A stretch of DNA of 64,000 nt from Escherichia coli (GTDB lineage: Bacteria > Pseudomonadota > Gammaproteobacteria > Enterobacterales > Enterobacteriaceae), in assembly GCF_044324785.1 (NCBI RefSeq), contig NZ_CP172127.1. One strand, given 5' to 3'. The position numbers and the translations under genes are program-made. Below the pieces are notes generated by a model. It was not told the DNA's origin and made no database searches. It was given only the letters and a program-made list of their open reading frames with translations. Of the stretch, positions 1-1,124 are shown one piece after another. Numbering within the stretch: position 1 is the first letter of the stretch; each line of letters opens with the position of its first letter.

Positions 1-516
1 GCACAGGGGCAGTTTGACAATATTCACGAAGTATTTTCTCTACGGCGTATAAACCTTGCCAGTAAAGAAAACTGGCGTGAGGATGAACGGGAAATTTTGC
101 AACGATTTGCTTGCCAGTATATGACTGATTGGGTATCCGGCGATGAAATTGTCGAATTACAGTACATGCTGGAAATGTTTTTCCGTGCCGATATCGCTCT
201 TTCGCCATTGCTTGATGCCATTATTTCAGTTCCCGGCTTTTGGTCGGCAGCGTCTCTTGCCTGTTTATTGAATACGTATCGTGACGGTTATATCAGAGAT
301 AACCAGGACGATATCGATAAAGCCATTACCACTCAAACTAATACTTGGGCTAGTAATAATCAATCCATCCTGAAAGAACGCGCGCGGCAGGCGATTGAGA
401 ACCCACTTAAGCAGCCCGAACAGGGCACACAGTATCAGATCTGGGAAGACGACTGGATGATTGATGAGTGTTTATGCGCGATGTATGACGCATCATCCGA
501 ATCACCAGGAAAATAA
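1..516 (+). CDS. hypothetical protein, 5'-truncated at window edge (frame open from position 1; stop TAA 514-516)
   Basis: Frame 1 is open from nt 1 to the stop at 514-516; the ORF track reports only the TTG-initiated part (97-516). Acidic, soluble-looking sequence not recognised by me; visibly AT-rich versus flanking core genes. It is not the GlgP C-terminus expected here from K-12 synteny. Confidence 0.5.
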   Translation, partial: AQGQFDNIHEVFSLRRINLASKENWREDEREILQRFACQYMTDWVSGDEIVELQYMLEMFFRADIALSPLLDAIISVPGFWSAASLACLLNTYRDGYIRDNQDDIDKAITTQTNTWASNNQSILKERARQAIENPLKQPEQGTQYQIWEDDWMIDECLCAMYDASSESPGK

Positions 517-518
517 AA

Positions 519-1124
519 ATGATTAAATTCCGGCTTTATATTCCCCCTGTAATTCTCGGTTTTGTTATCGTGCCAGTATTGGTATGGCCGACGGTTATTG
601 TCTTAGCCGTACTTATATTCATGTTAACTTTTCTGGCAGAAATAACATTCTCCTTTCCGCTCCTGGTTGTGCGTATTTCTCTTCAGGAATTACAACTTGA
701 GTTAATGGTTGAATATGCATTTTTTTTCAGTGTAATGTGGGGCATCGGTTGGCAATTCTCCCGCAGAACGCCTCCTGAATTAAAAAACAGACTGCATTGC
801 TGGCTGGTCTTTTCTCCGGCCTATTTCTGGTTAATTCTCTCGAATTTCATTCTTTATATTACTCCAGAGAAATCAGCGTTGCTGGAAAATATCCGAAACT
901 TCTTTCTGACGTTTGTCTGGCTTCCCCTGAATTTTTCCCCTTTTTGGCCGCAGCCGTGGACTGATTTTGTCGGCCCGATTAGTGCACAGCTTGGTTTTGC
1001 ATTGGGATATTATTGCCAGTGGTGTAGCAAAAATAGAAGCCAGGGGCAGAAGTGGGTTGAGTGGGGAACGTGCTTAAGTTTGGCGATTTTAGCTCAGGGG
1101 CCGTTATTCAATTATTTACAATGA
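519..1124 (+). CDS. hypothetical polytopic membrane protein (201 aa)
   Basis: ATG at 519 lies 2 nt after the upstream stop, with AGGA about 10 nt upstream (translational coupling). Several long hydrophobic segments rich in F/W/L/I; AT-rich; family not recognised. Confidence 0.5.
   Translation: MIKFRLYIPPVILGFVIVPVLVWPTVIVLAVLIFMLTFLAEITFSFPLLVVRISLQELQLELMVEYAFFFSVMWGIGWQFSRRTPPELKNRLHCWLVFSPAYFWLILSNFILYITPEKSALLENIRNFFLTFVWLPLNFSPFWPQPWTDFVGPISAQLGFALGYYCQWCSKNRSQGQKWVEWGTCLSLAILAQGPLFNYLQ

What the first reader, a model, noticed from the sequence alone, without database searches (positions are those of the whole stretch)
1..1124. AT-rich two-gene islet downstream of glpD: truncated soluble ORF translationally coupled to a polytopic membrane protein
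From the K-12 gene order I expected the glgP 3' end (after the small yzgL ORF) convergent with glpD at this position. Instead there are two plus-strand ORFs that I cannot assign to any family. The first is open from the window edge to 516 and encodes an acidic soluble protein. The second (519-1124) starts 2 nt after the first one's stop, behind an AGGA RBS, and encodes a 201-aa protein with multiple hydrophobic helices rich in F/W. Both are visibly AT-richer than the neighbouring core genes. A tightly coupled soluble-plus-small-membrane-protein pair in an AT-rich insert is the layout of effector/immunity, toxin/immunity or abortive-infection pairs, but that is only a structural analogy. The K-12 yzgL remnant could be a decayed copy of this islet.
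Basis: partly seen in the sequence, partly recalled or inferred. Interest (0 to 1): 0.6.

Follow-up and report, generated by a model that had tools for sequence, protein, structure and literature searches.

The report
Tail of a polymorphic glgP–glpD cassette operon
The two unassigned genes are real and AT-rich, but they are the last two genes of a patchwork accessory gene cluster found in about half of E. coli strains, not a self-contained toxin/immunity pair; their biochemical function is still unknown.

Summary
ORF1 is open from the window edge to 516. ORF2 runs 519-1124 (201 aa) and starts 2 nt after ORF1's stop, behind AGGA. Both have low GC (0.45 and 0.43, against 0.54-0.56 in the flanking genes), and both lie convergent with glpD.

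The interpretation does not hold. The pair is the 3' end of a polymorphic accessory cluster that fills the glgP-glpD gap. The fullest allele is TM+PstS-like gene (K-12 yzgL is its 5' stump) - ORF0 - ORF1 - ORF2. Other alleles replace the first gene with the auf fimbrial operon, lack ORF0, or carry a second PstS-like lipoprotein gene in place of ORF0 and ORF1.

ORF1 occurs without ORF2 in Pseudocitrobacter. ORF2 occurs without ORF1 in about 880 E. coli genomes. The last 11 codons of ORF1, the RBS and ORF2 form one block shared with the PstS-lipoprotein allele, so the tight coupling is a recombination legacy.

ORF1 models confidently as a HEAT-like helical repeat with no toxin fold. ORF2 is probably a free-standing paralog of the YzgL-type membrane domain. 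Neighbouring cassettes (ORF0, YbbD_head) belong to families found in Rhs immunity positions, so an orphan-immunity-like role is possible but unproven. Interest is modest.

The parts
1..516 (+). ORF1, 3' two thirds (codons ~85-255 of a 255-aa protein). It is an acidic, cytoplasmic, all-helical HEAT-like repeat protein with an invariant Cys cluster (C30, C31, C34, C243).
473..518 (+). Recombination junction. The last 11 codons of ORF1 (MYDASSESPGK), AGGA (507-510), the stop (514-516) and the 2-nt spacer are shared with the 3' end of the PstS-like lipoprotein gene of the alternative allele.
   Evidence: The megablast match to variant B begins at 473. The DNA alignment shows that homology starts at ~478. 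The protein tails are YDASSESPGK and YDASSESSGQ. ORF1 homologs in other contexts lack this tail.
519..1124 (+). ORF2, a 201-aa polytopic membrane protein. It is probably a free-standing paralog of the N-terminal membrane domain of the TM+PstS-like (full-length YzgL) protein.
   Evidence: ORF. Family restricted to Escherichia. hhalign against the PBP1 TM domain gives probability 82-90% over ~160 columns, with shuffle controls. dN/dS 0.2-0.7. The AF2 model is poor (pLDDT 50).
1146..1170 (.). GC-rich hairpin between the convergent ORF2 and glpD. It is the glpD terminator and is conserved even in genomes that lack the islet.
   Evidence: Terminator scan. The segment 1133-1177 is the only part that matches genomes lacking the islet: row H30.
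1178..2683 (-). glpD, the core-genome right-hand border of the variable slot.
   Evidence: dN/dS ~0.05.

Best explanation
ORF1 and ORF2 are the two distal genes of a polymorphic accessory operon that fills the glgP-glpD gap in Escherichia, Salmonella and Pseudocitrobacter.

Layout. The cluster starts with a gene for a ~500-aa protein with a ~200-aa polytopic N-terminal domain and a periplasmic PstS-like (PBP_like_2) domain. K-12 yzgL is the 5' stump of this gene. Exchangeable cassettes follow:
- ORF0, a probable tandem ferredoxin-like, DUF4279-related protein;
- ORF1;
- YbbD_head lipoproteins;
- a second PstS-like lipoprotein;
- small secreted proteins.
In E. coli the cluster ends with ORF2. 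In roughly 10% of E. coli genomes the auf fimbrial operon has replaced the first gene.

Shown. The ORF1-ORF2 coupling is a recombination scar. The ORF0-ORF1 cassette replaced the PstS-like lipoprotein gene while keeping that gene's last 11 codons, its RBS and its partner ORF2.

Inferred. ORF1 is a non-enzymatic helical-repeat protein, possibly metal-stabilised. It most likely acts by binding another protein, as an orphan immunity-type or adaptor protein alongside ORF0. ORF2 most likely works with PstS-like periplasmic domains in the membrane, and it is a relaxed, partly orphaned remnant wherever those domains are gone. No toxin is encoded in the cluster.
For: Alleles and counts among 5,426 complete E. 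coli genomes:
- PBP1-ORF0-ORF1-ORF2, with gaps of 14, 2 and 2 nt: junction found in 1,763 genomes.
- auf-ORF0-ORF1-ORF2: junction found in 555 genomes.
- PBP1-ORF1-ORF2: about 620 genomes, estimated as 2,942 minus 2,325.
- PBP1-PBP2-ORF2: 882 genomes.
- auf plus an ORF2 stump.
- K-12, with the yzgL stump only.

Other genera:
- Pseudocitrobacter: PBP1-ORF0-ORF1-glpD.
- Salmonella: PBP1-ORF0-YbbD_head-glpD.
- A metagenomic contig: PBP1-YbbD_head-ORF1.
- Another contig: PBP1-ORF0-ORF1-secreted repeat protein.

Other evidence:
- Junction at window ~473-481.
- ORF1 fold.
- ORF2 against the PBP1 TM domain: hhalign score 41 over 159 columns, against 13.6 +/- 3.1 for column-shuffled controls.
- Purifying selection on all three genes.
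- The ORF0 N-domain family gives weak DUF4279 hits. Its closest stand-alone member sits immediately after an orphan Rhs toxin C-terminus.
- K-12 ybbD overlaps the end of the orphan Rhs fragment ylbH.
- DUF4279 is classed as the immunity family FdL-Imm5 (PMC9424270; PMC13304343).
- The auf operon is reported in the glpD..glgP region (PMC12928451).
Against: - No function has been shown for any gene of the cluster.
- ORF1 itself has no sequence link to a known immunity family, and no ORF1 relative was found next to a toxin gene. Its only context outside the slot, on a Deinococcus megaplasmid, is uninformative.
- The ORF0-DUF4279 link is weak. ORF0 itself gives no Pfam hit, and the best hit among its relatives is E 3.5e-3.
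- The ORF2-PBP1 TM homology rests largely on one ~30-column motif plus collinearity; block-shuffled controls reach a score of ~30 against the real 41.
- The tight 14/2/2-nt packing of the four genes in 1,763 genomes would equally fit one integrated machine.
- The window stops inside ORF1, so which allele this genome carries is unknown.
Confidence: 0.6

Rival explanations
1. One integrated four-gene system. The TM+PstS-like protein, ORF0, ORF1 and ORF2 together form a membrane-associated device that binds, takes up or senses an anion. ORF2 is a second membrane subunit, and ORF0 and ORF1 are cytoplasmic subunits or regulators. The other alleles are degraded versions.
For: The gaps of 14, 2 and 2 nt suggest translational coupling. 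This is the commonest allele, with 1,763 genomes. All genes are under purifying selection. ORF2 resembles the TM domain of the first gene. The ORF0-ORF1 pair behind PBP1 is conserved across genera.
Against: The cassettes are freely recombined:
- ORF0 with YbbD_head in Salmonella, without ORF1;
- YbbD_head with ORF1, without ORF0;
- ORF1-ORF2 without ORF0, in about 620 genomes;
- ORF0-ORF1-ORF2 without the PstS-like gene, in the 555 auf-type genomes.
No ATPase, kinase or transporter signature was found.
Confidence: 0.22
2. One reading: ORF1 is a toxin or effector, and ORF2 is its cognate membrane immunity protein (or the reverse). Together they form a self-contained two-gene conflict module.
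For: Tight coupling and AT-rich accessory DNA. A soluble-plus-membrane layout. Neighbouring cassettes belong to immunity-associated families.
Against: - ORF1 occurs without ORF2, and ORF2 occurs without ORF1 in 882 genomes.
- The coupling block is shared with the PBP2-ORF2 allele.
- ORF1 is a HEAT-like repeat with no enzyme or pore-forming fold.
- There are no PADLOC or PHROG hits.
- There are no plasmid or phage copies.
- An ORF1::ORF2 deletion fusion, a split ORF1 and an ORF2 stump all exist in natural genomes. That is not expected for an addictive pair.
Confidence: 0.05
3. Accessory or regulatory genes of the auf chaperone-usher fimbriae, comparable to the small regulator genes found at the ends of other fimbrial operons.
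For: In the window's closest relative the three genes directly follow the seventh fimbrial gene on the same strand. The auf operon is reported in the glpD..glgP region.
Against: Only 555 of the ~2,325 ORF0-ORF1-ORF2 carriers have the fimbrial junction, while 1,763 have the PstS-like gene instead. The trio or the pair exists in genera and alleles that lack auf. A 173-nt gap separates the seventh fimbrial gene from ORF0.
Confidence: 0.03
4. Functionless decaying remnants. The genes are left over from an ancestral cluster and are drifting toward loss.
For: Many truncated, frameshifted or fused forms appear in the databases. K-12 has lost everything except a stump. ORF2 dN/dS rises to 0.4-0.7 among close alleles.
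Against: The reading frames are intact in thousands of genomes. dN/dS is clearly below 1 over deeper comparisons: ORF1 0.06-0.3, and ORF2 ~0.2 against variant B. The ORF0-ORF1 pair is conserved across genera.
Confidence: 0.1

Closest known systems
auf fimbrial island in the E. coli glpD..glgP variable region ('GR 24' in PMC12928451)
   Same: It is the same chromosomal slot. In the window's closest relative (98% identity), ORF0-ORF1-ORF2 sit directly after a seven-gene chaperone-usher operon whose gene order matches aufABCDEFG.
   Different: ORF1 and ORF2 are not fimbrial genes, and most carriers lack auf. I did not align the fimbrial genes to CFT073 auf directly, so that identification rests on position, gene order and the paper.
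K-12 yzgL (b3427) and the 'PstS family / PBP_like_2' proteins annotated in the same slot
   Same: YzgL is nearly identical to the first ~73 residues of the TM+PstS-like protein that heads the cluster. ORF2 aligns with that protein's membrane domain.
   Different: ORF2 has no PstS-like domain. The PstS-like proteins score below the curated TIGR02136 cut-off (about 125-130 bits against 206.6), and no ABC transporter genes accompany them.
DUF4279 / FdL-Imm5 ferredoxin-like immunity proteins of polymorphic toxin systems (PMC9424270; PMC13304343)
   Same: The N-terminal ~100 residues of ORF0, ORF1's upstream partner, belong to a family of ~100-aa proteins ending '...AGASxDFDPYV'. These give weak DUF4279 hits, and one of them sits right after an orphan Rhs toxin C-terminus.
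   Different: This concerns ORF0, which lies outside the window, and not ORF1 or ORF2. The hits are weak and ORF0 itself gives no Pfam hit. No toxin gene is present in the slot.
YbbD / YbbD_head (PF26610) proteins; K-12 ybbD in the rhsD-ybbC-ylbH-ybbD orphan array
   Same: YbbD_head lipoproteins occupy the same cassette positions as ORF0 and ORF1 in Salmonella and in a metagenomic relative. K-12 ybbD lies in the immunity position behind an orphan Rhs fragment.
   Different: ORF1 and ORF2 show no similarity to YbbD_head. The 'YbbD family' label that PGAP gives ORF0 most likely comes from a chimeric NCBIfam model.
Orphan immunity-gene arrays of rhs/cdi loci (from general knowledge of polymorphic toxin systems)
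   Same: They share variable strings of small, unrelated, AT-rich genes, exchanged by recombination at gene ends, some of them from immunity-associated families.
   Different: There is no Rhs, CDI or T6SS gene, no toxin C-terminal fragment and no recombinase in the slot. The array is anchored instead by a PstS-like membrane protein gene.

Membership tests
Toxin/immunity (or effector/immunity) gene pair | One partner carries a recognisable toxin or enzyme domain or fold. | tested here: not met
Toxin/immunity (or effector/immunity) gene pair | The two genes are inherited together as an obligate pair. | tested here: not met
   ORF1 occurs without ORF2. ORF2 occurs without ORF1 in 882 genomes. An ORF2 stump and an ORF1::ORF2 fusion exist.
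Toxin/immunity (or effector/immunity) gene pair | One product is toxic and the other neutralises it. | not testable with these tools
   This needs expression experiments.
Known anti-phage defence systems (PADLOC-DB 2.0) | A match to a defence-system protein model. | tested here: not met
   No family at E <= 1 for ORF0, ORF1, ORF2 or the PstS-like proteins.
auf chaperone-usher fimbrial operon | Fimbrial subunit, chaperone or usher homology, and co-inheritance with aufA-G. | tested here: not met
   No fimbrial domain was found. Only 555 of ~2,325 ORF0-ORF1-ORF2 carriers have the aufG-ORF0 junction.
YzgL-type membrane domain (N-terminal domain of the TM+PstS-like protein), tested for ORF2 | Collinear profile-profile similarity over the whole ~160-200-residue membrane domain, including the P-x-(G/S)-(A/S)-Q-L-x-F-(A/S)-L-G-Y motif. 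| tested here: met
   hhalign gives probability 90.5% (E 1.4e-6, 161 columns), or 82% after removing frameshifted rows. Column-shuffled controls score 13.6 +/- 3.1 against 41.2. Block-shuffled controls reach ~30, so the support is moderate. BLASTP alone is not significant.
PstS / PBP_like_2 phosphate-binding proteins | A periplasmic binding-protein domain. | tested here: not met
   ORF1 and ORF2 have no such domain. ORF1 shares only its last ~10 residues with the PstS-like lipoprotein, through the recombination junction.
DUF4279 / FdL-Imm5 immunity family, tested for ORF0, the neighbour of ORF1 | A significant Pfam PF14106 match, and a position downstream of a polymorphic toxin. | tested here: inconclusive
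   ORF0 itself gives no Pfam hit. Family members hit at E 3.5e-3, and there are precomputed weak hits. One member is in an Rhs immunity position. ORF0 itself has no adjacent toxin.
HEAT/ARM-type helical-repeat proteins, tested for ORF1 | A stacked antiparallel helix-pair solenoid. | tested here: inconclusive

The most novel reading that the evidence does not exclude
The glgP-glpD gap of enterobacteria may hold a previously undescribed kind of cassette array with no toxin gene of its own. It is headed by a membrane-anchored PstS-like protein and stocked with exchangeable immunity-type genes: a tandem FdL/DUF4279-like protein, YbbD_head lipoproteins, the ORF1 helical-repeat protein and the ORF2 membrane protein. 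These would protect the cell against Rhs, CDI or T6SS toxins of competitors. Alternatively, the YzgL-type membrane domain together with PstS-like domains could define a new binding-protein-dependent membrane module.
Probability: 0.2. Interest if true: 0.6.

Novelty: new member of a known kind. Interest (0 to 1): 0.3.

Why it matters
If the cassettes are orphan immunity genes, about half of E. coli strains would carry an unrecognised layer of protection against contact-dependent toxins. It would sit at a core-genome hotspot and, in ExPEC, next to the auf fimbriae.

If the four genes instead form one PstS-like membrane device, that would be a new binding-protein-dependent system, and the long-standing K-12 'yzgL' stump would be explained.

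The practical gains already in hand are more modest:
- K-12 yzgL can be annotated as the 5' remnant of a 502-aa TM+PstS-like gene.
- The 'YbbD family' label on ORF0 can be recognised as an artefact.
- ORF1 and ORF2 should not be treated as a toxin-antitoxin candidate on layout alone.

Tried and rejected
- Family searches with Pfam, NCBIfam, PADLOC and PHROGs on ORF0, ORF1 and ORF2 gave nothing usable. A PDB sequence search also gave nothing.
- BLASTP of ORF2 against the PBP1 protein was not significant. Only the profile-profile comparison worked.
- The word-seeded 5.8-billion-protein searches found only Escherichia and Shigella relatives of ORF1 and ORF2, many of them frameshift products.
- The ORF2 AlphaFold model was too poor (pLDDT 50) to justify a fold search, so one fold-search slot was left unused.
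- tblastn of ORF0, ORF1 and ORF2 against plasmids found no real plasmid copy. The only E. coli hit was a mislabelled chromosome, plus one distant Deinococcus relative of ORF1 in an uninformative context.
- The genome-contig scan with the ORF1 alignment returned only three loci, all in the same slot. It did not find ORF1 relatives next to toxins.
- Literature searches for yzgL and aufG/aufA, the combined ybbD + Rhs + immunity search, and the DUF4375/DUF1266 search gave nothing relevant. The original auf paper is not held.
- The contexts of three more stand-alone members of the ORF0 N-domain family were on contigs too short to be informative.
- The PBP1-ORF1 junction count of 1,280 was rejected as inflated, because the tool joins matching pieces across the 711-nt ORF0.
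- The idea that ORF0 is a YbbD homolog was rejected.
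Full report
OBSERVATION

The sequence is as described. Frame 1 is open from base 1 to TAA at 514-516. ORF2 runs 519-1124 and encodes 201 aa. AGGA at 507-510 precedes its ATG, and only 2 nt separate ORF1's stop from ORF2's start. 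glpD lies convergent at 1178-2683 and is followed by glpE, glpG, glpR and rtcR. A strong hairpin at 1146-1170 is the glpD terminator.

The composition claim also holds. GC is 0.450 for ORF1 and 0.426 for ORF2, against 0.542-0.555 in the five flanking genes. GC3 is 0.45 against 0.60-0.65. Only 0.3% of 1124-nt windows across the 64 kb are as AT-rich. ORF1 is acidic (pI ~4.4-4.6). ORF2 is 15.9% F+W and has six or seven charge-free helical stretches. There is no Rfam match.

WHAT THE WINDOW EDGE HIDES

In 5,426 complete E. coli genomes, 2,942 hold at least 80% of window 1-1177, always on the chromosome. The closest relative, strain MCJCHV-1 (98% identity), shows the context. After glgP come seven chaperone-usher fimbrial genes, then a 236-aa gene (ORF0), a 255-aa gene (full-length ORF1) and a 201-aa gene (ORF2), then glpD. 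The gaps between the last three genes are 2 nt and 2 nt. A published comparison places the auf fimbrial operon in exactly this glpD..glgP region (PMC12928451). The finding's 'two-gene islet' is therefore the tail of something larger.

THE SLOT IS POLYMORPHIC

| Allele | Example | Genomes (of 5,426) |
|---|---|---|
| glgP - TM+PstS-like 502 aa ('PBP1') - ORF0 - ORF1 - ORF2 - glpD, gaps 14/2/2 nt | L012 | 1,763 (junction count) |
| auf - ORF0 - ORF1 - ORF2 | L001 | 555 (junction count) |
| PBP1 - ORF1 - ORF2, no ORF0 | E2348/69, an O25:H4 strain | ~620 (2,942 minus 2,325) |
| PBP1 - PstS-like lipoprotein 330 aa ('PBP2') - ORF2 | L002 | 882 |
| auf plus a 215-nt ORF2 stump | L014 | not counted |
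| yzgL stump only | K-12 | not counted |

The 93-aa YzgL product is nearly identical to the first ~73 residues of PBP1. yzgL is therefore a remnant of the first gene of this cluster, not of ORF1 or ORF2.

The slot is also variable outside E. coli:
- Pseudocitrobacter has glgP - secreted 176 aa - PBP1 - ORF0 (75% identity) - ORF1 (70%) - glpD, with no ORF2.
- A related contig carries PBP1 - ORF0 - ORF1 - secreted repeat protein - glpD.
- Salmonella enterica has PBP1 - ORF0 - YbbD_head lipoprotein - glpD.
- Another contig has PBP1 - YbbD_head - ORF1.
- E. whittamii has a split ORF1.
- Escherichia sp. MOD1-EC7003 has an ORF1::ORF2 deletion fusion at a TGGCCGAC microhomology, plus a further secreted-protein cassette.

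THE ORF1-ORF2 COUPLING IS A RECOMBINATION SCAR

Variant B matches the window only from ~473 onward, at ~80% identity. In the DNA alignment, homology switches on at ~478. It covers the last 11 codons of ORF1 (MYDASSESPGK, against ...YDASSESSGQ in PBP2), the RBS, the 2-nt spacer and ORF2. ORF1 homologs that are not followed by ORF2 end differently (…LCAMSDL*, …MHEAIW*). It was retained when an ORF0-ORF1 cassette displaced PBP2.

WHAT THE PROTEINS LOOK LIKE

ORF2. Its model is poor (pLDDT 50). Its family profile aligns collinearly with the N-terminal membrane domain of PBP1 at probability 82-90% over ~160 columns, sharing the motif P-x-(G/S)-(A/S)-Q-L-x-F-(A/S)-L-G-Y. Column-shuffled controls score 13.6 +/- 3.1 against 41.2. 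Block-shuffled controls reach ~30, so most of the signal is one motif plus collinearity. I rate the homology as probable. It fits the gene order: PBP1 is a TM-PBP fusion, and PBP2 followed by ORF2 looks like a split version.

ORF0. A profile search of 1.84 billion representatives shows that its first ~100 residues belong to a family of stand-alone ~100-aa proteins ending AGASxDFDPYV. Those proteins give weak DUF4279 hits. ORF0's C-terminal half aligns to its N-terminal half at probability 87%, so it is probably a tandem pair of such domains. DUF4279 has been classified as the ferredoxin-like immunity family FdL-Imm5 (PMC9424270). It has also been predicted as the immunity partner of an Rhs-Ntox33 effector (PMC13304343). 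The closest stand-alone relative of ORF0 (P0184) starts right at the end of an orphan Rhs toxin C-terminus.

YbbD. K-12 ybbD, the namesake of YbbD_head, overlaps the end of the orphan Rhs fragment ylbH. Two cassette types of this slot therefore come from families seen in immunity positions. For ORF1 and ORF2 themselves, no such link was found.

ARE THE GENES ALIVE?

| Gene | dN/dS |
|---|---|
| ORF0 | 0.05-0.12 |
| ORF1 | 0.06-0.3 |
| ORF2 | ~0.2 against variant B; 0.4-0.7 among close alleles |
| glpD | ~0.05 |

The genes are constrained, ORF2 the least. Stumps, fusions and frameshifts are common.

VERDICT ON MECHANISM

- Shown: the pair is the distal end of a mosaic accessory cluster. ORF1 and ORF2 are separable. 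Their junction is a recombination joint.
- Inferred: ORF1 is a protein-binding helical-repeat cassette that travels with ORF0, and it may be of the orphan-immunity type. ORF2 is a YzgL-type membrane module whose natural partners are the PstS-like domains.
- Main rival (about 0.2): all four genes form one PstS-like membrane device.
- The toxin/immunity-pair reading is unlikely (about 0.05). The fimbrial-accessory reading is also unlikely (about 0.03).

NOVELTY AND INTEREST

Both genes are already annotated as 'hypothetical protein' in thousands of RefSeq genomes, and the slot is a known variable region that carries auf. What is new here is the dissection of the cassette architecture, the origin of yzgL, and the explanation of the coupling as a recombination scar. 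That is useful for annotation but only modestly surprising, so I score interest at 0.3.

Noticed in passing
L003:8702-9121, L001:11033-11743; proteins P0201 and P0203: NCBIfam NF007301 (PRK09781, 181 aa) appears to be built on a chimera. Its positions 44-181 match the Salmonella YbbD_head lipoprotein (E 1.8e-95), while positions 6-51 match the ORF0 N-terminus. Natural ORF0-N::YbbD_head fusion proteins exist. This probably explains why PGAP labels ORF0 'YbbD family protein' in some genomes.
   Followed up: yes
window 1-3000: The best match in 5,426 complete E. coli genomes is only 97.1%. Against strain MCJCHV-1, glpD has dS 0.164 while the adjacent ORF2 has dS 0.035 and ORF1 has 0.091. Either the source is a divergent Escherichia lineage, or the islet was exchanged by recombination more recently than its flank.
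   Followed up: partly
L005:3725-4006 (K-12 yzgL): K-12 YzgL (93 aa) is the 5' stump of a 502-aa TM+PstS-like gene that is intact in many other E. coli strains. The match runs over the first ~73 residues and is then lost.
   Followed up: yes
L022:8001-8713 (Escherichia sp. MOD1-EC7003): An in-frame deletion joins ORF1 codon ~51 to ORF2 at a shared TGGCCGAC (Trp-Pro-Thr) microhomology. An extra 187-aa secreted-protein cassette sits between PBP1 and ORF0.
   Followed up: partly
L013:1627-3134 (E2348/69) and L021:5539-6341 (E. whittamii): The TM+PstS-like gene is annotated as frameshifted in E2348/69. ORF1 is split into two overlapping ORFs in E. whittamii. Both point to ongoing decay of the cluster in some lineages.
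   Followed up: no
PLSDB record NZ_OL790696.1: A 4.8-Mb E. coli replicon is filed among the plasmids. It is evidently a chromosome, and it was the only 'plasmid' hit for ORF0, ORF1 and ORF2.
   Followed up: no
ORF1 residues 30, 31, 34, 241, 243 (C241 and C243 lie at window ~469-477): There is an invariant Cys cluster (CCxxC near the N-terminus, CxC near the C-terminus) across all ORF1 homologs. It may be a metal site tying the two ends of the helical repeat together. The geometry in the model was not examined.
   Followed up: no
ORF2 family C-termini (alignment A2): The ORF2 family has two alternative C-terminal tails, …LAILAQGPLFNYLQ and …FVTLGMMAWALR. This suggests a second recombination breakpoint near the 3' end of ORF2, next to the glpD terminator.
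   Followed up: no
L019:5986-6741 (Deinococcus sp. KNUC1210 megaplasmid): This is a distant ORF1 relative (25% identity over residues 3-155, E 2e-7). It lies among many small hypothetical genes and a transposase, and its context is uninformative.
   Followed up: partly
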